A DNA stretch of 64,000 nucleotides from an uncultured Gammaproteobacteria bacterium. GTDB taxonomy: Bacteria; Patescibacteriota; Patescibacteriia; UBA9934. Under the pieces are notes generated by a model. It was not told the origin of the DNA and did no database searches. It saw only the letters and a program-made list of their open reading frames with translations. The translations under genes were made by a program, and so were the position numbers. Positions 38,026 to 57,390 of this stretch are shown here, piece after piece (position 1 is the first letter of the stretch; every line of letters starts with the position of its first letter). The stretch is taken from the NCBI GenBank assembly GCA_964569575.1, contig CAZMTL010000004.1, positions 8,959 to 72,958 of the forward strand, read 5' to 3'.

Positions 38026-38457
38026 TTAAATCCCCAAGTCCCCCAATTGTTCAGCAATGTCCGAAGCATCCGCTTCCGTCTGCTTACGGTACTGATCCCA
38101 CGCCTCCGCGTCCCATAATTCGAGCCGCGTACTAACCCCTACAATCACCACATTCTTCTTAATACCTGCATATTCACGCAAGTATTCCGGCACGACGAAC
38201 CTTCCCTGCTTATCCAAATTCACATCCATCGCACCCGCAAGCATGAGCCGAGCGAACGCACGAGAATTTGACTTCCCCAGGGGCAAATTAGAGAGCTTTT
38301 CAGCTAACTTACCCCACTCCTCCAAAGGGAGCAGGAACAGTGAAGAATCTAGACCTCGCGTAACAACCGCGCCCTTCGCAAGGTCGGAACGAAACTTCAC
38401 TGGGGTCGCTAGGCGCCCCTTGTCGTCGATATTGTGATGATATTCGCCAATAAACAT
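38026..38457 (-). CDS. mraZ: transcriptional regulator MraZ
   Basis: MFIGEYHHNIDDKGRLATP plus a second DKQGRFVVP SpoVT-AbrB repeat. Confidence 0.92.
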   Translation of the reverse strand: MFIGEYHHNIDDKGRLATPVKFRSDLAKGAVVTRGLDSSLFLLPLEEWGKLAEKLSNLPLGKSNSRAFARLMLAGAMDVNLDKQGRFVVPEYLREYAGIKKNVVIVGVSTRLELWDAEAWDQYRKQTEADASDIAEQLGDLGI

Positions 38458-38756
38458 AGATGCTTGTAGAAAGTAGACCTCCCTACTCGCTAAAGATGAC
38501 TTTCGTCACCAACTAGTTAAAAAGAACAAGCGGTTGTTTCCCGTCAGAAAATCTGACAGCTGCCACAAATAATCGCACTACTCAGAGGCTTCTCCGAACA
38601 TCCGTCTTGCGACGGAAACTCTCGGAGAAGTCTCTCTCCAGCGATGACTCATGACAGGGGAAATTTCCCAAAACCACTTGTAAAAAAATACGACGAAAAA
38701 TACATTTCGTCTCAAGGGGCGTGACAGAAGCTAAATTTCCAAACAATCTGGAAATT

Positions 38757-38816
38757 CCCCACTTTCTGCCTCGCTGCTTCCACTTTACCCCACTTCCGCC
38801 CCACCAGCAACCACCC
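38757..38816 (-). promoter_or_regulatory. candidate MraZ operator: five phased (A)AAGTGG boxes
   Basis: CCAC on the plus strand at 38759, 38780, 38790, 38801 and 38811 (spacings 21, 10, 11, 10); minus-strand boxes read AAAGTGGGG, AAAGTGGAA, GAAGTGGGG, TGGTGGGG, GGGTGGTT. Confidence 0.5.
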
Positions 38817-38837
38817 TTCACCTAAACCTGTGGATAA

Positions 38838-38866
38838 TTGACCAAACAAGTTAAAAACGCTACATT
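38838..38866 (+). promoter_or_regulatory. sigma70-type promoter of the GC-rich Nudix-like gene
   Basis: TTGACC-N17-TACATT, about 20 nt upstream of the AAGGAGG SD. Confidence 0.45.
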
Positions 38867-41944: not shown

Positions 41945-44473
41945 CTACTTCACATTCTTCTTCCTCAAATAAGGCTTCAAATACTGTCCCGTATAACTCT
42001 TAGCCGAACGAGCAATATCCTCCGGAGTCCCTTCTGCAACAACCATTCCTCCACCAACTCCACCCTCTGGACCCATGTCGATTAACCAGTCAGCCGTTTT
42101 GATCACATCCAAATTGTGTTCAATGATCAAAACCGTATTTCCTTTCTCGACCAAACGATGCAACACCTCAAGTAATGTCTTAATATCTTCGAAGTGAAGT
42201 CCTGTCGTCGGCTCGTCGAGTAAATAAAGTGTTCGGCCCGTATTTCGCTTCGCAAGTTCAGAAGCCAACTTCACACGCTGAGCCTCACCACCCGAAAGCG
42301 TATTTGCAGACTGACCTAGCTTCAAATAACCAAGCCCAACGCTCACGAGTGTTACCAACTTATCGTGAACAGAAGGAATGTCCTTAAAAAACTCCGTTGC
42401 TTCCTCGATCGTCATCTCCAAAACTTGAAAAATATTCTTTTCTTTAAATTCAACCTCCAACGTTTCACGATTAAATCGTCGCCCTTTACACACATCACAC
42501 TGCACATACACCGTTGGCAAGAAATGCATTTCGATCGCAATTTCCCCATGCCCCTCACAATGATCACAACGTCCACCCGCCACGTTAAAGCTAAAACGAC
42601 CAGTTTTATATCCACGGAACTTCGCTTCATCCGTCGTAGCAAACAAATCACGAATCGGCGTCCAAGCTCCGGTATAAGTAGCTGGGTTAGATCTAGACGT
42701 TCGTCCAATCGGAGATTGATCCATCAAAATTGCCTTATCGATGTACTCAATGCCCAAAACAGATTTATGAGCACCAGGCTTCCCTTTGCTGCCGTACAAC
42801 TTTTTCGCAATCGCTTTGTAAGTCACTTCCAACATCAAGGTCGACTTCCCGCTTCCAGAAACACCTGTAATACAAACCATGCGTCGAAGCGGAATATCAA
42901 CATCTACATTCTTCAAATTGTTCTCGGTAGCTCCCCGAACCTTAATCGCATCCTTCCCAACCTTTCTGCGCTCGGTAGGAACCGGAATAACGCGATCACC
43001 CCGCAGATACGCCGCGGTCAGCGATTTCTTATCTTCAAAAATCTCGGGCGTTGGTCCGGCAGCAACAATCTCCCCTCCGTGCACACCAGCACTCGGTCCA
43101 ACCTCGACCATGTAATCCGATCGCCGAATGGTATCTTCGTCATGCTCTACAACCAACACGGTATTCCCCAAATCTCGCAACGATTCAAGCGTATTAATCA
43201 ACTGATCGTTATCACGTTGATGCAGACCAATCGTTGGTTCATCAAGTACATACAAAGCACCAACCAAACGCGAACCAATTTGCGAAGCTAAACGAATACG
43301 TTGCGCTTCACCCCCAGAAAGCGTCCCGGCCTTACGATCGAGCGTTAAATAATGCAACCCAACATCCAACATAAACGTCAATCGGCTTTCGATCTCTTTC
43401 AATACGGTTCCAGCAATTTCCAACCCACGCTCGTCTAACGCGATATGTAGAATGAAATCTGCGGCTTCCGAAATCGTTTTCGCTGTGTACTGAACAATAT
43501 TTTCACCACCAATAAGCACACTCAACGCCTCCTTGCGCAATCGCTTCCCATCACACGCGGGACAAATTTCTTCAGAGAAAAGCTCGAGCGTTCCTAACCC
43601 AGTACACGCTTCACAAGCTCCATAGGGACTATTGAACGAAAAAAGTCGTGGCTCGATTTCTGGAAACGAAAATCCACAATTTACACAACTAAATTTAGTA
43701 GAAAACAACCGCTCTTCCCCTGACGCGTACACCACATTCACCAAATCCTGTCCGCGATCAACCGCATTTTCGAGCGCTTCATTCAAGCGTTGACGCGTGT
43801 CCTTGTCCGGATCCTTTAGGCTAACCTGTGGAATAACATCGATAACCACTTCGATCGTATGCTGCTTATAGCGAGAAAGCTTAATTTCTTCACTCAAACG
43901 ATGCATCTTGCCATCTACCCGCACCTTTGCGAATCCTGAATTATACAAATCATACAATAACTGATAATAATTCCCCTTTCGACCACGAACAACCGGAGCC
44001 AAAATTTGAATTTCGCCAGAAGGAATCGCCTTTTCCTTTGCATTTTGCTTCATCAACAAATCAGAAATTTCATCAATCGTTAAACGCTCAATTCTCGATT
44101 TACAATCAGGACAATGCGCCTCACCAACACGCGCGTAAAGAACACGAAGGTAATCGTAAATTTCCGTCACCGTCGCCACAGTTGAACGCGGGTTTCGAGA
44201 ATGTGCTTTTTGATCAATCGAAATAGCTGGTGACAACCCTTCGATTTCGTCTACATCCGGCTTTTGCATCTGACCCAAAAATTGCCGTGCATAAGCAGAA
44301 AGCGATTCGATATAACGACGCTGCCCTTCCGCAAAAATCGTATCAAAAGCGAGGGAAGATTTTCCGCTTCCCGACACGCCAGTAAAACAAATAAGTTGAT
44401 TTCGAGGCAATTCGAGTGAAACATTTTTTAAGTTATGCTCACGCGCACCCTTGATTGTAATTTTTTCTTTCAT
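41945..44473 (-). CDS. uvrA: excinuclease ABC subunit A (842 aa)
   Basis: Starts [17 protein letters not shown]; two ABC ATPase modules ([18 protein letters not shown]) and LSGGEAQR signatures; the 142 upstream codons of the track ORF are read-through of GC-rich DNA. Confidence 0.95.
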
Positions 44474-44480
44474 ATATAAT
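44451..44480 (+). promoter_or_regulatory. candidate sigma70 promoter facing into GC island D (antisense to the uvrA start)
   Basis: TTGATT-N18-TATAAT on the plus strand; it overlaps the uvrA start codon region, so could be fortuitous AT-rich sequence. Confidence 0.4.
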
Positions 44481-45191
44481 TGTTGAGATGTTGATAGCGT
44501 TCTCGTGGTGAGATCGGCGTCGCATCGGCGAAAGGAGGCCCCCATGTCTCGTGGAGCAGTGAACGCTGGACGAACGCGTCCAGCCGAGACCACGCGTCGC
44601 CCGGCAATGCAGGTGCATTGCCGGGACCGATCGGGCGCACGACGCGCTTCGAACGGAGGTGAGCAGTCTCGATCCGTCGTGCCCGGCGTGACCACCTCCG
44701 GAAACGGAGACGGTCGAAGCCCGCGAGCGCGCGAACAGCGCTGCGGTGGTGGTGGGCTCGCGCCCATCCGAGGAGCTTCACCCGACGAAGAGTCCAGGTG
44801 CCCGGGGGCGTCGGAACGGGCGAACCCGGGCACGCCAACGCAGACACGAAGGCCAGCGTCCGGCCGAGGAGGTGAGGAGTCTCGATCCATCACGCCCAAC
44901 TACGCGAGCGATTCCGCAACCGGAAACGCTCGCGAACAGCTGTACTGTGGCAACGGGGGACTTTCCTCCACACCAGGATCTGGACACGACTACCGTGCAC
45001 CGGGCTTCGGAGGCAAGAAGCACATCAAGGACCCTCGAGGAAAGAAGCGCGGCGACAACCCGCGAGGAATTCCGCATCTCCCTCGACGAATTCGACTGCC
45101 CACGCACCCGGGCATGCAATGGACTCCGGCCAAGAAGCCTTAGCCGAACACAATTGACGTACAGACGAAACCCGCCAGGCGATCGTCATCT
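44481..45191. other. GC island D: hairpin-dense GC-rich element, coding status and strand unresolved
   Basis: 43/60 G+C in line 44581-44640; many perfect stems (see findings); all six frames are open over long stretches; no protein-like translation. Confidence 0.6.
44544..45143 (+). CDS. candidate R/G/S/P-rich basic repeat protein (199 aa), island D
   Basis: AAAGGAGG-N5-ATG, open to TAG 45141, terminator 50 nt downstream. Against it: low-complexity translation, and codon-position GC of about 72/73/58% in the first 60 codons. Confidence 0.3.
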
Positions 45192-45221
45192 GCCCTGCAA
45201 AAGCAGGGCCTTTCATTTTTT
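45192..45221 (+). terminator. intrinsic terminator (plus-strand sense), overlapping the uvrB stop
   Basis: GCCCTGC-aaaa-GCAGGGC followed by CTTTCATTTTTT; on the minus strand the same hairpin has no U-run. Confidence 0.55.
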
Positions 45222-47270
45222 AGAAGAACGTTTTTTCATCTTTTTTAACTCGGACTGCAATTCAATAATCTCATCTCGCAATATCCCTGCCGTTTCAAAC
45301 TGCAAATTAGCCGCTGCCAACTCCATCTCCTCTGTCTTCTCACGAATCACCTCTTCGATTTCGTGCGGCTCTGCAGCCAGTTCGATCTTCAAGATATTTT
45401 TCGTATCTTTCTTTTCACCCGGCTCTGCAACCCCCATGATTTCGCTGACATTTTGGATGGACTTAGTAATCGTAATCGGAGTAATTCCATGCTTTTCGTT
45501 GTGTGCCAGCTGAATCGTACGACGGCGATTGGTTTCATCGAGCGCTCGAGTGAGCGAACCGGTCATGCGATCCGCGTACAAGATCACTTCTCCATGGATA
45601 TTTCGTGCCGCTCGTCCAATGGTTTGAATCAACGACATTTCCGACCGCAGAAACCCTTCCTTGTCCGCGTCCAAAATAGCCACCAATGACACCTCCGGCA
45701 AATCCAGCCCTTCACGTAACAAGTTCACCCCAATAATAACGTCGTAAATCCCCTTGCGTAGATCGGTCAATATTTCGATACGCTCGATCGTTTTGATATC
45801 AGAATGGATATATTGAACCTTGATTCCCAGCTCTTTCAAATGCTCGGTCAAATCTTCAGCCATCTTTTTTGTAAGCGTTGTCACCAAACTTCGCTCACCT
45901 TTCGCTGTTCTATCTTGAATACGCGGAATCAAATCATCTACCTGACCTCGATGATCATCTGTTTCGGTCACCGGAAGTACAGTCACAATCGGGTCGACCA
46001 ATCCGGTCGGTCGTACGATCTGTTCAACAATTCGATCTGATGAATCATATTCTTGTTCACCGGGCGTTGCAGAGACATAAATCGTCTGCCCTACTCGTTC
46101 TTCGAATTCTTTTGATGTCAAAGGTCGATTGTCGCGAGCTGACGGCAGTCGGAACCCATGTTCTACCAAATTATCTTTCCGCGCCTTATCGCCAGCAAAC
46201 ATTCCACGAATCTGAGGAATAGTCACATGAGATTCGTCGATAACCGTCAGAAAATCCTTGGGAAAATAGGCAAGCAATGTATCCGGTGGTTCACCAGCAT
46301 TTCTGCCATCAAAATGCCGAGAGTAGTTTTCGATCCCATTACAGTAGCCAATACTCTTCATCATTTCGATATCGTACTTGGTTCGTCGCTGCAAACGTTC
46401 GTATTCAAGCAACTTTTCCTCCTGCTTAAATTCCGCTAACCGCATTGCAAGTTCATCTTCGATTTGCCGAACCGCCCTTTCCGTATGTTCCGCGCCAACA
46501 ACATAATGTTTCGCGGGAAACAGCCAAAAATCCTGCACGCGATCTTTCACTCGCCGAGTAACGGGATCGAGAATAAAAATCTCGCGCAAAACACCATCTT
46601 CAATCACCAACCGATACAACGAAGTCTTCTCGTTCGCATCCCCGCTTCCAGAACGCCCAGACATCGGCATAATCTCGATCACGTCCCCCATCGCTCTAAA
46701 CTGTCCACGCTCTACATCCGCATTCGTTCGCTCAAAATACATTTCGATCAATCGTCTAATCAGTTCCGAACGATCCGCAACCTGTCCCGCCTTCAAGTTC
46801 ATCACCGTTTTAGAATATTCCTTCGGCGAACCTAATCCATAAATGCACGAAACCGAAGCAACGATAATCACATCCTGCCGGCTCAATAACGCCTGAGTCG
46901 CCGCATGTCGCAAACGATCGATCTCTTCATTAATCTGAGCTTCTTTTTCGATATACGTATCGGAACGGGCAATGTAAGCCTCTGGCTGATAATAATCGTA
47001 ATAACTCACAAAGTACTCAACCGCATTTTCGGGGAAAAACTGTCTAAATTCATTACAAAGCTGAGCTGCCAACGTTTTATTATGAGCAATCACAAGCGTT
47101 GGTCGCTGGACCTGCTGAATCACATTCGCAATCGTAAACGTCTTTCCAGAACCAGTAACACCAAGCAACGTCTGGCGATCCAGTCCAGTTTGAAGACCAT
47201 CAACCAACCCCGCAATTGCCTTGGGTTGATCGCCAGCCGGTTTGTATTTTGATTGTAGGTTAAATTTCAT
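45213..47270 (-). CDS. uvrB: excinuclease ABC subunit B
   Basis: LLGVTGSGKTF Walker A, DESH box, helicase motifs, C-terminal UVR domain (LAAANLQFETAGILRDEI); ends in TGA. Confidence 0.97.
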   Translation of the reverse strand: MKFNLQSKYKPAGDQPKAIAGLVDGLQTGLDRQTLLGVTGSGKTFTIANVIQQVQRPTLVIAHNKTLAAQLCNEFRQFFPENAVEYFVSYYDYYQPEAYIARSDTYIEKEAQINEEIDRLRHAATQALLSRQDVIIVASVSCIYGLGSPKEYSKTVMNLKAGQVADRSELIRRLIEMYFERTNADVERGQFRAMGDVIEIMPMSGRSGSGDANEKTSLYRLVIEDGVLREIFILDPVTRRVKDRVQDFWLFPAKHYVVGAEHTERAVRQIEDELAMRLAEFKQEEKLLEYERLQRRTKYDIEMMKSIGYCNGIENYSRHFDGRNAGEPPDTLLAYFPKDFLTVIDESHVTIPQIRGMFAGDKARKDNLVEHGFRLPSARDNRPLTSKEFEERVGQTIYVSATPGEQEYDSSDRIVEQIVRPTGLVDPIVTVLPVTETDDHRGQVDDLIPRIQDRTAKGERSLVTTLTKKMAEDLTEHLKELGIKVQYIHSDIKTIERIEILTDLRKGIYDVIIGVNLLREGLDLPEVSLVAILDADKEGFLRSEMSLIQTIGRAARNIHGEVILYADRMTGSLTRALDETNRRRTIQLAHNEKHGITPITITKSIQNVSEIMGVAEPGEKKDTKNILKIELAAEPHEIEEVIREKTEEMELAAANLQFETAGILRDEIIELQSELKKMKKRSSKK

Positions 47271-47435
47271 AACAAAATTGCCCGACTCCACGCTCTACTA
47301 CAAAGTAGATGACGCTTTTGGGATCGGGATCGTTCGTAAATTGTAAAACCAGCATAGCACACTTAAAGAAGAAAACAAAAACGCGCCCCTTCTTGCAAAG
47401 TGAGCGCGCAGCATGCAGTGAAGCATGAATTCCTC

Positions 47436-47645
47436 CTATTCGTCTTCGGTAGTGTGGCGACGATTACCACGAGTGGTGCGGACGTATCCGCGTTTAGAGT
47501 GATACCCGCCGCCATTACGACGGCGAAGTGCCACCAGATCGGTACGCCGACCCTGCGGAAGCACGACAACGATCCGAAGATCATCCTCGCGCTTCTGTTC
47601 CTTGGTCCTACCAACAGGCTTCGAAGCCTTCCGCTTCTTCGCCAT
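47436..47645 (-). CDS. hyper-basic small protein (69 aa), GC island E, second gene
   Basis: AGGAGGTGAGAG directly before ATG 47645; MAKKRKASKPVGRTKEQKRE...RRRNGGGYHSKRGYVRTTRGNRRH; GC-rich stem plus U-run downstream. Confidence 0.6.
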   Translation of the reverse strand: MAKKRKASKPVGRTKEQKREDDLRIVVVLPQGRRTDLVALRRRNGGGYHSKRGYVRTTRGNRRHTTEDE

Positions 47646-47662
47646 CTCTCACCTCCTGGTGC

Positions 47663-47872
47663 TCACAACCACGTGAGCACGTACATCTTCACGCGATGAA
47701 ATGCGCTCGAGCGCACCACCGAGTGGACCACCTCCGGAAGCTGAGGCTCCCAGTACAGGGAGTTGAGCTTGCCAGTGAGCTCGACCGTCCCTTCCAGGAA
47801 CGACCGAACCCGACCGGGCTTGAGATCGAACTTCTCGAGAATGAATCCCGAGATCAAACCCCATAGAATCAT
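47663..47872 (-). CDS. small protein with hydrophobic N-terminus (69 aa), GC island E, first gene
   Basis: GGAGGG four nt before ATG 47872; MILWGLISGFILEKF...; its stop is 15 nt before the next gene's SD. Confidence 0.55.
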   Translation of the reverse strand: MILWGLISGFILEKFDLKPGRVRSFLEGTVELTGKLNSLYWEPQLPEVVHSVVRSSAFHRVKMYVLTWL

Positions 47873-47895
47873 GATCCCTCCAATCAAGACACACC

Positions 47896-47924
47896 ACAGT
47901 ATACCAAAAAAGAGGCTTTGTCAA
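47896..47924 (-). promoter_or_regulatory. sigma70-type promoter for island E
   Basis: Minus strand TTGACA-N15-TATACT with TGG upstream (extended -10), or N17-TACTGT; the -35 sits inside terminator hairpin AGAGG..CCTCT of the upstream gene. Confidence 0.45.
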
Positions 47925-47951
47925 CCTCTTTTCTTCTCTACCACCTACACT

Positions 47952-55505: not shown

Positions 55506-56027
55506 TTAACCTTTCTTCTCACTAATTGCTCCAAGAACCGTTACGAGACCTCGCAAATTACCTGCAAGAACGTTGACGAATCCAGAAACAGGGGCGTTGA
55601 TTGAACCAACCAACTTCGCATAGAGCTCTTCTCGGCTAGGAAGAAGTGCCAACTGATTCACTTCTTGTGAACCAATCTGACGACCTTCTAAAAATCCCGA
55701 TACCAACGAAACGGCTTCGTTTTCTTTGGTAAGCTCTTTCAAAAGCTTCGCTGCACCAACATCATCTCCAAACGCCACGGCAGTAAGGATTGATCCCTTC
55801 AACGCTGAAGTGTCTAGATCAAATCCCGCTTCCTTCGCGGCAATTTTGAGAAGTGTCTTTTTTGCAACGAATACCTTGATGTCCTTTTCTTCTGCCTTCG
55901 TACGCAGCGCATCTGCCTGCGCCATACCGAATCCAGAGATTGAAGAGAACGCGGCAGACTTCATGTTTTTGAAGTCCTGAGCAATTCGCTCAACGATCAC
56001 TTCTTTTTGTGGACGAGTTTTCGCCAT
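55506..56027 (-). CDS. rplJ: 50S ribosomal protein L10
   Basis: [15 protein letters not shown]..., immediately upstream of rplL. Confidence 0.93.
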
Positions 56028-56201
56028 ACTACATTGAATTAACATGCAGATGAAAGAGGAAGGCATCTCCACTTCCAGTCCGCTGAATAAAAAACAACGG
56101 CTGAAAAGCCGTAGAAAATGAAGCGAAATCGCTAGAAATATGCCTCGATGAGATTTATGCGTTCGCTACTCACTTTCTACGGCTCTTCTGTTGTTGGACA
56201 T
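56028..56201 (-). promoter_or_regulatory. rplJ leader with mutually exclusive antiterminator/terminator helices
   Basis: On the minus strand, AGCCGUAGAAA (56184-56174) can pair with UUUCUACGGCU (56117-56107). Alternatively CGGCU (56111-56107) pairs with AGCCG (56102-56098), followed by UUGUUUUUUAUU. Confidence 0.45.
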
Positions 56202-56230
56202 ACACTATCAAAAAAGAAAAACGACGTCAA
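56202..56230 (-). promoter_or_regulatory. sigma70-type promoter of rplJL
   Basis: Minus strand TTGACG-N17-TAGTGT. Confidence 0.5.
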
Positions 56231-56232
56231 CC

Positions 56233-57390
56233 TTAGGAAAGCACCGAAAAAGCCTGCAAAACAGTCAAAACAGCCCCTGCAGCAAAAACGAATCCAACAG
56301 CTACCAATATACTGTCAGGGATCGTTAAGCAGCGCTTAGGCGTGCACACATCGCGTTTTGCACGCACATACAAATACAACACAATTAAGCCGATTAAACT
56401 TCCAAGAAAACCACCCGTAAATCCAATAACATCAATAAAATCACGAGCGCCCAGCAAAAAAGCAACAAACGGAACCGAACACGCAAGCGCCCAAGCGCGC
56501 AAATAGCGCCACTTAAAATCGTAAACAAGAGTATCCATAACGCTAATGCCCAAGATCAAAAAGCTGGTAAATACAGAAAAAAGTCCAATAACCGCTCCTA
56601 CGACCAAAACCCATTCACCTACAATGCTTCCAAGACCAGTGATAGCATCTTGTGTTGTAAGGGGTCCGGTAACACCAACGACCACGGCACTAAACGCGAC
56701 ATAGACCAAAAACACGATCGCCATCGAAGCAAGAATAACCGGTCGCAGCAAACGATCTCGTTGTTTCGCTAAAATATGAGCCGCTTCTGGTACGGCGGCC
56801 AAACCACCAAATGCAAACAACACAACACCAAATGGCAAAAACCACGACGATTCGCGAGCGGCGTTCAAAAAAGAAAGCTCGACATGCGGAACAGAACCAG
56901 CGACCACCACCGTAAGCATAATCAACAACGCCAGCACAAACACAACCTCCAGGTGGGCAATAAAACTAAGCCCACCAATCAACAAAAGACTCGACACAGC
57001 AAAAAAGACCAGCTGGTAGACCATCAATTCACCTCCTAACACGGGCTCCAGTAACGCAAAAAGAAAATCCCCGCCCAAAATAATATAAGCAATCATGGCG
57101 CCCCAAGTCGACGTAAATAAAAAGAGTGTCGCCACCCAACTAGCTTCGCGACCCACATACCGATCAACCAATCCCGCCATTCGGGAAACGCCCGGAGTGT
57201 TACGAATGACGTCCGCATAAAGAACGAGCAAGAGCGTATTTACCACCACAACAACAATCATGTGCACCATTCCAACCCAAAAACCAGCCTGAGCAAATAC
57301 AAACGGCAGCCCAAAAATACCAACCCCAATAACCGAACCAATAATCGGCTGCATTCCCTGAAAAAATAATCCATGTACCCCCTTTTTCAT
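56233..57390 (-). CDS. amino acid permease-type transporter
   Basis: 385 aa with about 11 TM helices; N-terminal GSVIGVGIFGLPFVFAQAG resembles aromatic/amino-acid permease families. Confidence 0.65.
   Translation of the reverse strand: MKKGVHGLFFQGMQPIIGSVIGVGIFGLPFVFAQAGFWVGMVHMIVVVVVNTLLLVLYADVIRNTPGVSRMAGLVDRYVGREASWVATLFLFTSTWGAMIAYIILGGDFLFALLEPVLGGELMVYQLVFFAVSSLLLIGGLSFIAHLEVVFVLALLIMLTVVVAGSVPHVELSFLNAARESSWFLPFGVVLFAFGGLAAVPEAAHILAKQRDRLLRPVILASMAIVFLVYVAFSAVVVGVTGPLTTQDAITGLGSIVGEWVLVVGAVIGLFSVFTSFLILGISVMDTLVYDFKWRYLRAWALACSVPFVAFLLGARDFIDVIGFTGGFLGSLIGLIVLYLYVRAKRDVCTPKRCLTIPDSILVAVGFVFAAGAVLTVLQAFSVLS

What the first reader, a model, noticed from the sequence alone, without database searches (positions are those of the whole stretch)
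44451..45221. 0.73-kb GC-rich, hairpin-dense insert between uvrB and uvrA: antisense gene for a basic repeat protein, or a large structured RNA
The plus strand (antisense to both uvr genes) carries a complete set of expression signals. These are TTGATT-N18-TATAAT (44451-44480), AAAGGAGG-N5-ATG (44531-44546), a 199-codon ORF to TAG 45141-45143, and GCCCTGC-aaaa-GCAGGGC plus a T-run (45192-45221). The translation, however, is R/G/S/P/T-rich and low complexity. Codon-position GC in the first 60 codons is about 72/73/58%, so it lacks the high GC3 seen in island A. The region is also packed with perfect helices. Examples: GTCTCG(44545)...CGAGAC(44590) enclosing GCTGGAC-gaacgc-GTCCAGC; CGCGTCG(44592)...CGACGCG(44646) enclosing the palindrome CCCGGCAATGCA-gg-TGCATTGCCGGG (12 bp per arm); and CGGAGGTG(44654)...CACCTCCG(44700). 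Others are CTCCG-GAAA-CGGAG, GTGCCCGGG(44798)...CCCGGGCAC(44833) and CGCGAGCG-a-TTCCG-caac-CGGAA-a-CGCTCGCG (44903-44936). There is also a long-range complement, GGAGGCCCCC (44534-44543) versus GGGGG..CCTCC (44955-44969). uvrA has no convincing promoter of its own, and the hairpin after uvrB lacks a U-run on the minus strand. The minus-strand version may therefore be an internal spacer of a uvrB-uvrA transcript.
Basis: partly seen in the sequence, partly recalled or inferred. Interest (0 to 1): 0.78.

Follow-up and report, generated by a model that had tools for sequence, protein, structure and literature searches.

The report
Antisense small-protein gene between uvrB and uvrA
The GC-rich stretch between the DNA-repair genes uvrB and uvrA is most likely a small, clade-restricted protein gene on the opposite strand; in this genome internal duplication has enlarged it and it is unusually rich in hairpins, and no evidence was found for a conserved large RNA.

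Summary
A 739-nt spacer (44474-45212) has 64-70% GC in a 45% GC Patescibacteria (Uhrbacteria-like) genome. Its + strand carries a promoter-like site, a Shine-Dalgarno sequence (SD), a 199-codon ORF and a terminator. It also holds far more hairpins than expected.

Comparison decides the coding question. Eleven related genomes (UvrA 73-85% identical) have a small ORF of 51-162 aa at the same place, antisense to uvr. Each has an SD and a start codon, and most have a hairpin plus T-rich tail. They share the motifs G-x-G-G-L-(S/A)-P and D-W-G-W plus a basic tail, and these motifs vary in a codon-degenerate way. So this is a protein family, almost unannotated and without a Pfam or Rfam match.

The window ORF is an expanded member. 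An in-frame 213-nt tandem duplication gives two copies of the CGxGGL motif that differ only at third codon positions. The DWGW motif is degenerate.

The 5' part is more structured than synonymous-codon reshuffles of the same protein (z about -5). That structured sequence has no homologue anywhere I searched.

Verdict: a clade-restricted small-protein gene nested antisense in the uvrB-uvrA pair. No conserved large RNA was found. Function is unknown, and RNA-level regulation remains possible.

The parts
41945..44473 (-). uvrA (842 aa), transcribed divergently from the small gene
   Evidence: Translation gives a full UvrA. Its homologues are named excinuclease ABC subunit A by their sources.
44451..44480 (+). 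Promoter-like site TTGATT-N18-TATAAT. The -35 element lies inside the first uvrA codons (antisense) and the -10 element abuts the uvrA start codon.
   Evidence: Consensus scan. A -10-like box at the equivalent place on the same strand is seen in most relatives. Function is inferred, not shown.
44531..44546 (+). SD AAAGGAGG, a 5-nt spacer, then the ATG start codon
   Evidence: Read directly from the sequence. A GGAG/GAGG-type SD lies 4-6 nt before the start codon in 10 of 11 relatives.
44544..45143 (+). 199-codon ORF encoding a Gly/Arg/Pro/Ser-rich basic protein. It is an expanded member of the clade-restricted G-x-G-G-L / D-W-G-W small-protein family.
   Evidence: AlphaFold2 predicts no secondary structure, with mean pLDDT 49.5.
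44655..44867 (+). Repeat unit U2 (213 nt, 71 codons). It begins with the SD-like GGAGGTGAG and contains CGGGGLAP at 44742-44765.
   Evidence: the repeat finder family D1, spacing 213. DNA and protein self-alignment.
44868..45012 (+). Repeat unit U3, paralogous to U2. It contains CGNGGLSS at 44946-44969 and continues into the C-terminal part shared with the relatives.
   Evidence: hhalign of the ORF against the family profile built without the window aligns residues 131-144.
45066..45128 (+). C-terminal segment [26 protein letters not shown] places GIPHLPRRI and MQWTP opposite GIPIIPQRI and DIGYHP of the long form P0123. It is the degenerate counterpart of the DWGW motif.
   Evidence: Alignment A4. 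BLASTP against P0123 gives E = 0.026 and reaches GIPHLPRRI but not MQWTP.
44546..44936 (.). Hairpin-dense segment made of perfect helices: 44546-44590, 44593-44646 (enclosing the 12-bp palindrome 44600-44625), 44654-44700 (GGAGGTG paired with CACCTCC), 44696-44709, 44798-44833 and 44903-44936.
   Evidence: Excess over dinucleotide shuffles, codon permutations and synonymous reshuffles.
45192..45221 (+). Intrinsic-terminator-like hairpin GCCCTGC-aaaa-GCAGGGC plus a T-run. The T-run is the antisense of the Lys codons at the end of uvrB.
   Evidence: Equivalent hairpins with T-rich tails follow the small ORF in 9 of 10 relatives.
45213..47270 (-). uvrB (685 aa counted from the Met at 47270), convergent with the small gene
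   Evidence: Translation. Homologous loci.

Best explanation
The insert is a protein-coding gene on the + strand (44544-45143). It belongs to a small-protein family restricted to one Uhrbacteria clade. The family sits between uvrB and uvrA on the opposite strand, head-to-head with uvrA and tail-to-tail with uvrB.

Shown:
- The family exists. It is conserved in position and orientation. It has its own SD and start codon, and usually a terminator. It evolves under amino-acid-level constraint at two motifs, G-x-G-G-L-(S/A)-P near the N-terminus and D-W-G-W before a basic tail.
- The window copy carries the first motif twice, inside an in-frame 213-nt tandem duplication.

Inferred:
- The gene is transcribed from the AT-rich divergent region it shares with uvrA, and translated from ATG 44544.
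- The product is a disordered, basic 199-aa protein whose repeated N-terminal modules arose by duplication of the gene's 5' end, including a relic SD (GGAGGTGAG, now read as Gly-Gly-Glu).
- The dense GC-rich hairpins are a property of the mRNA. One of them pairs an SD-like GGAGGTG with CACCTCC. They probably affect translation or transcript stability rather than forming a separate RNA gene.
- Relatives that lack the gene have uvrB and uvrA 1-132 nt apart. The gene therefore sits inside what is otherwise an operon. Read-through from uvrB would be antisense to it, so it could act like the opposite-strand gene of a noncontiguous operon.

The biochemical role of the protein is unknown. A link to nucleotide excision repair is suggested only by the conserved position.
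For: Synteny:
- Antisense small ORFs lie in the uvrB-uvrA spacer of L082, L083, L084, L086, L087/L092, L089, L090, L168, L169, L170 and L171.

Expression signals:
- SD plus ATG or GTG in the relatives.
- A -10-like box next to the uvrA start codon.
- A terminator-like hairpin in 9 of 10 relatives.

Coding signature:
- Gly codons vary only at the third position.
- Leu is encoded by both CTN and TTG.
- Ser is encoded by both TCN and AGY.
- DWGW is written GAC/GAT TGG GGC/GGT/GGA TGG.

Family alignments.

Window membership:
- CG.GGL[SA][SP] occurs twice in the ORF frame, and never in 5000 shuffles across six frames.
- hhalign against a profile built without the window gives E = 1e-3.
- BLASTP against P0123 gives E = 0.026 over 59 aa.

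Translation of the extension:
- The duplication is 213 nt, 71 codons.
- The two copies of C-G-x-G-G-L differ at five third positions and at no first or second position of the conserved residues.
- No in-frame start codon lies between the U2 GTG codons (44679, 44685) and the conserved C-terminal part.

No RNA family matches.
Against: - Sequence similarity of the window ORF to the family is weak outside the motif. hhalign aligns only 14 columns, with probability 22%.
- The most conserved family motif, DWGW, is degenerate here (MQWTP).
- U2 and U3 differ equally at the three codon positions overall, 30/29/30. Most of the extension therefore shows no purifying selection.
- The ORF length is not unusual for this composition (P = 0.14).
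- GC3 is 0.62, well above the genome value, and the hairpin excess persists when protein and codon usage are held fixed (z = -5.0). Coding alone does not explain the sequence.
- There are no transcription or translation data.
- A profile search of 5.8 billion proteins found only the three members that gene callers had already called. A search of 1.84 billion representative proteins added only one more.
Confidence: 0.68

Rival explanations
1. Decaying or neutrally expanding remnant. The ancestral small gene has lost its own start codon and its DWGW motif in this lineage. The 199-codon frame stays open only because GC-rich, T-poor sequence rarely contains stop codons. The palindromes are by-products of slippage or template-switch duplication and have no function.
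For: - The stop-free run is not significant (P = 0.14).
- U2 and U3 differ 30/29/30 by codon position.
- DWGW is replaced by MQWTP.
- The gene has been lost outright in some relatives: L085, L088 and the contig carrying P0006.
- The predicted protein is fully disordered.
Against: - A strong SD (AAAGGAGG-N5-ATG) sits exactly at the head of the open frame.
- Both motif copies are kept, with third-position differences only.
- The duplication is in frame.
- The terminator is intact.
- Perfect 8-13-bp helices would not persist under neutral decay, given that U2 and U3 have already diverged by about 30%.
Confidence: 0.17
2. A large structured non-coding RNA, or a dual-function RNA. On this reading the GC-rich hairpin array is the functional unit. 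It could act on the + strand as a 5' domain of the small-gene transcript, or on the - strand as a structured spacer in a uvrB-uvrA read-through transcript.
For: - MFE z-score of -4.6 to -5.2 on the + strand and -3.7 on the - strand, against a background of -0.54 +/- 1.41.
- z = -5.0 against synonymous reshuffles of the same protein.
- The relatives' spacers are also GC-richer than their genomes and mostly have negative z-scores, for example -7.6 for L089 and -9.1 for L083 on the uvr strand.
- One inner stem is kept between U2 and U3 through a double change: CTCCG/CGGAG against TTCCG/CGGAA (read).
Against: - No Rfam match, even at E = 10.
- The structured 5' part has no homologue in the 170 related loci, in viral contigs or JGI metagenome contigs (where only its 21-nt repeat motif was scanned), or in phage and plasmid records. 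No covariation test is therefore possible.
- What is conserved across genomes is a reading frame, not helices.
- The helices are all perfect Watson-Crick pairs without G-U pairs, so they carry no strand information.
- The outer stems of U2 and U3 are not in the same register.
Confidence: 0.1
3. A mobile palindromic element, of the MITE or Rickettsia-palindromic-element type, inserted in frame into the 5' end of the small gene.
For: - The segment is GC-rich, palindrome-dense and foreign in composition to the genome.
- The uvrB-uvrA junction accepts insertions in other lineages: a DUF218-like gene in L005 and a GIY-YIG gene plus repeats in L091.
Against: - There is only one copy in 64 kb.
- The 21-nt repeat motif is absent from viral and JGI metagenome contigs.
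- There is no blastn match in phages, plasmids or any fetched locus.
- The repeat finder reported no inverted repeat spanning the ends of the segment. Target-site duplications were not searched for.
- The repeats contain the family's own coding motif, so they derive from the gene itself.
Confidence: 0.04

Closest known systems
Unnamed hypothetical-protein family represented by P0121 (69 aa, Logan), P0122 (96 aa, NCBI 'hypothetical protein ABIA47_04710') and P0123 (162 aa, 'hypothetical protein COY25_00350', Candidatus Uhrbacteria)
   Same: - Same locus, between uvrB and uvrA.
- Same strand, antisense to uvr.
- SD, start codon and terminator present.
- The N-terminal G-x-G-G-L-(S/A)-P motif.
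- A proline-rich, basic middle part.

   Different: - The window protein is 199 aa because its N-terminal module is duplicated in tandem.
- Its DWGW motif is degenerate.
- It lacks the helical C-terminal domain of the 159-162-aa long forms.
- It has much higher GC and hairpin content than any relative.
Noncontiguous operons (Staphylococcus aureus menE-menC/MW1733-ytkD type; PMC11034616)
   Same: A gene transcribed in the opposite direction sits between two functionally linked genes. In relatives without it, uvrB and uvrA are adjacent, 1-132 nt apart. The hairpin after uvrB has no T-run on the uvr strand, so read-through is conceivable.
   Different: Co-transcription of uvrB and uvrA across the gene, and mutual repression of the overlapping transcripts, define the class. 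PMC11034616 states that they cannot be predicted computationally. Neither was tested here.
Rickettsia palindromic elements inserted in frame in protein genes (from my own knowledge: Ogata et al. 2000, Science)
   Same: Hairpin-forming sequence lying inside an open reading frame and read as protein.
   Different: RPEs are dispersed multi-copy elements. Here there is a single locus, no other copy anywhere searched, and the repeats carry the host gene's own motif.
Large ornate bacterial RNAs in Rfam (OLE, GOLLD, ROOL, HEARO; named from my own knowledge)
   Same: Several hundred nucleotides long, intergenic, richer in GC than the genome, with many helices.
   Different: No match to any of the 4227 Rfam models, even at E = 10. 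The conserved feature across genomes is a reading frame.

Membership tests
Uhrbacteria G-x-G-G-L / D-W-G-W small-protein family (P0121/P0122/P0123/P0124) | Located between uvrB and uvrA on the opposite strand, head-to-head with uvrA | tested here: met
   Window ORF 44544-45143 (+) lies between uvrA (start 44473, -) and uvrB (stop 45213, -). Eleven related loci have the same arrangement.
Uhrbacteria G-x-G-G-L / D-W-G-W small-protein family (P0121/P0122/P0123/P0124) | N-terminal motif (C/F/L)-G-x-G-G-L-(S/A)-(P/S) | tested here: met
   CGGGGLAP at 44742-44765 and CGNGGLSS at 44946-44969. The motif never occurs in 5000 shuffles.
Uhrbacteria G-x-G-G-L / D-W-G-W small-protein family (P0121/P0122/P0123/P0124) | D-W-G-W (or W-W) motif followed by a basic tail | tested here: inconclusive
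   The window has only MQWTPAKKP at the aligned place. The long forms are also degenerate there (DIGYHP in P0123, QYHPDW in P0124).
Uhrbacteria G-x-G-G-L / D-W-G-W small-protein family (P0121/P0122/P0123/P0124) | Significant sequence similarity to a family profile built without the query | tested here: inconclusive
   hhalign gives E = 1e-3 and probability 22% over 14 columns. BLASTP against P0123 gives E = 0.026. phmmer-type search with the ORF alone found nothing.
Uhrbacteria G-x-G-G-L / D-W-G-W small-protein family (P0121/P0122/P0123/P0124) | Own SD plus start codon, and a hairpin with T-rich tail after the stop codon | tested here: met
   AAAGGAGG-N5-ATG, and the terminator-like site at 45192-45221. 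Relatives.
Any Rfam RNA family (release 15) | Covariance-model score at or above the gathering threshold | tested here: not met
   Nothing in 44300-45400 on either strand. The best score was 20.5 bits against a threshold of 40. No matches in ten relatives' loci.
Noncontiguous operon | An opposite-strand gene flanked by genes of one functional unit | tested here: met
   uvrB, then the small gene on the other strand, then uvrA. The two uvr genes are adjacent where the small gene is absent.
Noncontiguous operon | One transcript spanning the flanking genes across the antisense gene, with mutual repression of the overlapping transcripts | not testable with these tools
   This needs a strand-specific or direct-RNA transcriptome. 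PMC11034616 says such operons cannot be predicted computationally.
MITE / palindromic mobile element | Several dispersed copies, with terminal inverted repeats and a target-site duplication | tested here: not met
   One copy in the window. The repeat motif is absent from viral and JGI metagenome contigs. The repeat finder reported no inverted repeat spanning the ends of the segment. Target-site duplications were not searched for. The rest of the genome is not available.

The most novel reading that the evidence does not exclude
The locus may be a dual-function element. On this reading it encodes a clade-specific disordered protein tied to nucleotide excision repair. In addition, its GC-rich hairpin array would act at the RNA level: as an antisense partner or roadblock controlling uvrB-to-uvrA read-through (a noncontiguous operon in a candidate-phyla-radiation bacterium), or as a translational switch built from SD / anti-SD helices. 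GC enrichment and structure would then be maintained by selection across the clade.
Probability: 0.15. Interest if true: 0.6.

Novelty: new variant of a known kind. Interest (0 to 1): 0.36.

Why it matters
It adds a conserved but almost entirely unannotated small-protein family to Patescibacteria, a group in which much of the gene content is unexplained. Gene callers had called only 4 of the 12 copies found here.

The family sits at a fixed place inside the uvrB-uvrA pair. That gives a concrete candidate for an accessory or regulator of nucleotide excision repair in these reduced genomes.

It also shows that a long open frame in a GC-rich island is not evidence for a gene by itself, while synteny combined with codon-degenerate motif conservation is.

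The hairpin load of the window allele exceeds what the protein sequence requires. It is a small, well-defined case for studying how tandem duplication of a gene's 5' end, SD included, builds a repeat protein and a highly structured mRNA at the same time.

Tried and rejected
- **Rfam.** The whole window at gathering thresholds, the insert at E <= 10, and ten relatives' loci gave nothing relevant.
- **Protein search with the 212-aa ORF.** Run against 5.8 billion proteins; no hit at E <= 0.01.
- **Exact scan for the internal repeat motif GGAGGTGAGNAGTCTCGATCC.** No match in viral contigs or JGI metagenome contigs.
- **blastn and nhmmer of the insert.** No match in 170 fetched loci apart from the identical Logan contig, and none in phage or plasmid records.
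- **Species representatives fetched through UvrB (GTDB genomes).** UvrB is at most 63% identical. Those checked with a long uvrB-uvrA gap carry other content: L005 a DUF218-like gene, L091 a GIY-YIG gene.
- **DNA alignment of the spacers.** Too divergent to use, 36% mean column identity. No RNAalifold or covariation test was attempted for that reason.
- **Pfam and PHROGs on family members.** No Pfam match; the only PHROGs match was a weak one for P0123 (phrog_28118, unknown function, E = 0.018).
- **AlphaFold2 of the window protein and of the long form P0123.** Mean pLDDT was 49.5 and 47.9, too low for a fold search, so none was run.
- **Horizontal transfer from a high-GC donor.** Considered and rejected as the main explanation. 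The relatives' copies are also GC-enriched despite long vertical descent, and the repeats carry the family's own motif.
- **An N-terminally extended UvrA (ORF 41945-44899).** Considered and rejected. The window UvrA aligns from residue 1 with the start of the homologues' UvrA.
Full report
**1. The observation**

The stretch lies between the start of uvrA and the stop of uvrB. The uvrA ATG is at 44473 on the minus strand and gives an 842-aa product. The uvrB TGA is at 45215-45213. The spacer is 739 nt. Its GC content is 0.64-0.70, against about 0.45 for the rest of the 64-kb window. No other part of the window resembles it.

Two helix start coordinates are off by one base. The identical uvrA-insert junction occurs in a public Logan contig (L001). 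Whether that contig is independent of the window's source is unknown.

The hairpin density is well above chance:
- The MFE z-score for 44481-44940 is -4.6 to -5.2 on the + strand and -3.7 on the - strand.
- 78 other 460-nt windows of this sequence average -0.54 +/- 1.41.
- There are 19 perfect 7-nt inverted repeats within 40 nt, against 1.8 +/- 1.7 after codon permutation.
- The 3' part, 44941-45212, is not unusual (z = -1.8 and -0.6).

The length of the open frame is not above chance. The longest stop-free run is 218 aa, against 172 +/- 37 in dinucleotide shuffles (P = 0.14).

**2. Known RNA and protein families**

No Rfam family matches the insert at gathering thresholds or at E <= 10 on either strand. 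The ORF product has no match in Pfam or PHROGs. It also has no detectable homologue in a word-indexed search of 5.8 billion proteins.

**3. The organism and its relatives**

UvrB and UvrA place the window in Patescibacteria, close to Candidatus Uhrbacteria and Magasanikbacteria. The nearest UvrA in public data is 85% identical. No close strain is available.

I fetched the uvrB-uvrA junction of the closest relatives. Three lineages have uvrB and uvrA almost touching: 1 nt apart on the contig of P0006, about 43 nt in L088 and 132 nt in L085. Eleven loci, with UvrA 73-85% identical, have a spacer of 350-600 nt that is GC-richer than its surroundings. Examples are 0.59 against 0.44 in L169 and 0.63 against 0.51 in L084.

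**4. What the relatives' spacers contain**

Each spacer holds a small ORF on the strand opposite to uvr, starting near uvrA and ending near uvrB. Most are 51-96 aa. Two lineages, L087 and L171, have 159-162 aa.

Ten of the eleven have a GGAG/GAGG-type SD 4-6 nt before an ATG or GTG. Most have a -10-like box next to the uvrA start codon on the ORF's strand. Nine of ten have a 9-11-bp GC-rich hairpin with a T-rich tail after the stop codon. In the window the T-rich tail is the antisense of the Lys codons at the end of uvrB.

The products align into M-x(3-16)-(C/F/L)-G-x-G-G-L-(S/A)-P ... P-x3-P ... (K/S)-D-W-G-W-(P), followed by a basic tail.

The conservation is at the amino-acid level:
- The three Gly codons of the first motif are GGN, with all four bases at the third position.
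- Leu is written both CTN and TTG.
- Ser is written both TCN and AGY.
- D-W-G-W is written GAC/GAT TGG GGC/GGT/GGA TGG.

This pattern is what selection on a protein produces, not selection on an RNA helix or a DNA site.

Gene callers had recorded only four of these ORFs: P0121, P0122, P0123 and P0124, all unnamed or 'hypothetical protein'. Profile searches of 5.8 billion proteins and of 1.84 billion representative proteins found no further members. The family is therefore real, confined to this clade and almost unannotated.

**5. The window ORF as a member**

The ORF 44544-45143 has the same position, orientation, SD and terminator as the family. Its last 72 residues align with the family: [18 protein letters not shown]..., then [21 protein letters not shown] opposite GIPIIPQRIWREPKSDIGYHP of P0123.

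Against a family profile built without the window sequence, hhalign aligns only residues 131-144, with E = 1e-3 and probability 22%. Sequence alone is therefore weak evidence.

The full motif CG.GGL[SA][SP] occurs twice in the ORF frame and never in 5000 dinucleotide shuffles read in all six frames. With the synteny, I take membership as likely. The DWGW motif is degenerate (MQWTP), and I score that feature as inconclusive.

**6. What is special here**

The window allele is three to four times longer than the short forms, because its 5' end is repeated. Unit U2 (44655-44867) and unit U3 (44868 to about 45012) are paralogous over about 160 nt at roughly 70% identity. The start-to-start spacing is 213 nt, exactly 71 codons.

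Each unit begins with GGAGGTGAG-(C/G)AG-TCTCGATCC. This looks like a former SD and is now read as Gly-Gly-Glu. Each unit also contains (R)EQ-x-(Y)-C-G-x-G-G-L.

The head of the ORF, GGAGGCCCCCATGTCTCG, resembles the same unit start. A third, more eroded unit is possible, but the match is not statistically supported.

Over the 60 codons that align, U2 and U3 differ equally at the three codon positions, 30/29/30. Most of the extension is therefore evolving without visible constraint. The motif is the exception. TGC GGT (GGT) GGT GGG CTC in U2 stands against TGT GGC (AAC) GGG GGA CTT in U3. That is five third-position differences and no change at a first or second position of the five conserved residues.

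This is the best evidence that U2 is translated. In addition, no in-frame start codon lies between the U2 GTG codons at 44679 and 44685 and the conserved C-terminal part. Translation of the conserved part therefore has to begin upstream of U3, most simply at ATG 44544.

AlphaFold2 predicts no secondary structure for the product (mean pLDDT 49.5). That fits a disordered, basic, Gly/Arg/Pro/Ser-rich protein.

**7. The hairpins**

Coding does not explain the structure. I reshuffled synonymous codons among identical residues, which keeps the protein and the codon usage. The native 5' part still folds 35 kcal/mol better than the mean (z = -5.0). GC3 is 0.62, well above the genome value.

All helices are perfect Watson-Crick pairs, so they say nothing about which strand matters.

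One helix pairs the SD-like CGGAGGTG (44654-44661) with CACCTCCG (44693-44700). It overlaps the alternative hairpin CTCCG-GAAA-CGGAG (44696-44709). The leaders of several relatives also appear, by eye, to pair their SD with an upstream CCTCC-type segment (sequences). I did not quantify that.

Between U2 and U3 the inner 5-bp stem is kept through a double change: CTCCG/CGGAG against TTCCG/CGGAA. The outer stems are not in the same register.

The relatives' spacers also tend to be structured. Their z-scores run from -1.1 to -7.6 on the ORF strand, and reach -9.1 for L083 on the uvr strand. These values include their terminators, and the sequences are not alignable (36% mean column identity).

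I conclude that the excess structure is real and probably selected or actively generated. It belongs to the mRNA of a protein gene. No conserved RNA architecture can be demonstrated.

**8. How it most likely works**

Shown: a conserved, independently signalled small-protein gene sits antisense between uvrB and uvrA, and the window carries an expanded allele of it.

Inferred:
- Transcription starts from the promoter-like site at 44451-44480. Its -35 element lies inside the first uvrA codons and its -10 element abuts the uvrA ATG.
- Translation starts at 44544.
- Transcription ends at the hairpin 45192-45209, which overlaps the last uvrB codons.

uvrB and uvrA are adjacent where the gene is absent. 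The hairpin after uvrB has no T-run on the uvr strand. No sigma-70-like site was found on the minus strand in 44000-45700, although relatives such as L087 and L086 do have -10-like boxes close to the uvrA ATG.

Read-through from uvrB into uvrA is therefore conceivable. It would be fully antisense to the small gene's mRNA. That is the architecture of a noncontiguous operon, in which the overlapping transcripts repress each other (PMC11034616). This step is speculation until a transcriptome exists.

The protein's role is unknown. Its fixed association with uvrA and uvrB across the clade is the only functional hint.

**9. Rivals**

- A decaying remnant (confidence 0.17). This fits the non-significant ORF length, the 30/29/30 pattern and the eroded DWGW motif. 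It does not fit the strong SD at the head of the frame, the motif copies that differ only at third positions, the intact terminator, or perfect helices in units that are already about 30% diverged.
- A large non-coding or dual-function RNA (0.10). This fits the structure statistics. It has no comparative support, and cross-genome conservation is in a reading frame.
- A mobile palindromic element (0.04). This is contradicted by the single copy, the absence of matches elsewhere, and the fact that the repeats carry the host gene's own motif.

**10. Novelty and score**

The kind of thing is known: a taxonomically restricted small protein gene, enlarged by tandem duplication, possibly nested in an operon. 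The family is undescribed. The combination of in-frame duplication of a gene's 5' end with an extreme hairpin load beyond coding needs is unusual.

I rate it a new variant of a known kind, with interest 0.36. The most novel reading not excluded is a dual-function RNA-and-protein regulator of the uvrB-uvrA unit in a candidate-phyla-radiation bacterium. I give it a probability of about 0.15, and interest of about 0.6 if true.

Noticed in passing
window 38401-38860 (+ strand scan): This was the most extreme MFE z-score in the background scan: -8.3 at GC 0.46. It covers the 254-nt gap 38458-38711 between two minus-strand ORFs. There is no Rfam match, even at E <= 1. It could be an undescribed structured RNA or leader.
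   Followed up: partly
window 47292-47950: A second GC-enriched stretch (0.58-0.60) lies immediately upstream of uvrB and has no convincing gene. It contains only short overlapping ORFs on both strands. It shows no similarity to the 178-aa gene that occupies this position in relative L082.
   Followed up: partly
L091 2258-3040; L005 6055-6699: The uvrB-uvrA junction takes up other cargo in other Patescibacteria. L091 has a GIY-YIG-type ORF flanked by tandem repeats. L005 has a 214-aa gene that I judge DUF218/SanA-like by eye; no family scan was run. The junction looks like an insertion hot spot.
   Followed up: no
L083 2347-2560 (uvr strand): The part of this relative's spacer next to uvrB folds far better than shuffles on the uvr strand: z = -9.1, against -3.9 on the other strand. 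The strand asymmetry suggests G-U-containing helices in a uvrB 3' extension.
   Followed up: no
window 44474-44500 and the relatives' equivalents: uvrA has no SD in the window or, by eye, in the closest relatives. In several relatives a TATAAT-like box lies 10-15 nt before the ATG (L086, L087). This suggests a very short leader or a leaderless uvrA mRNA in this clade.
   Followed up: no
L087 2444-2932; L171 2454-2933: Two lineages carry a 159-162-aa long form of the family. It has a predicted helical C-terminal domain (low-confidence model) and normal composition. The short forms may be truncated derivatives of it, or the domain may be a later addition.
   Followed up: partly
window 56001-56460: Third most negative MFE z-score in the background scan: -3.5 at GC 0.42. 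Not examined.
   Followed up: no
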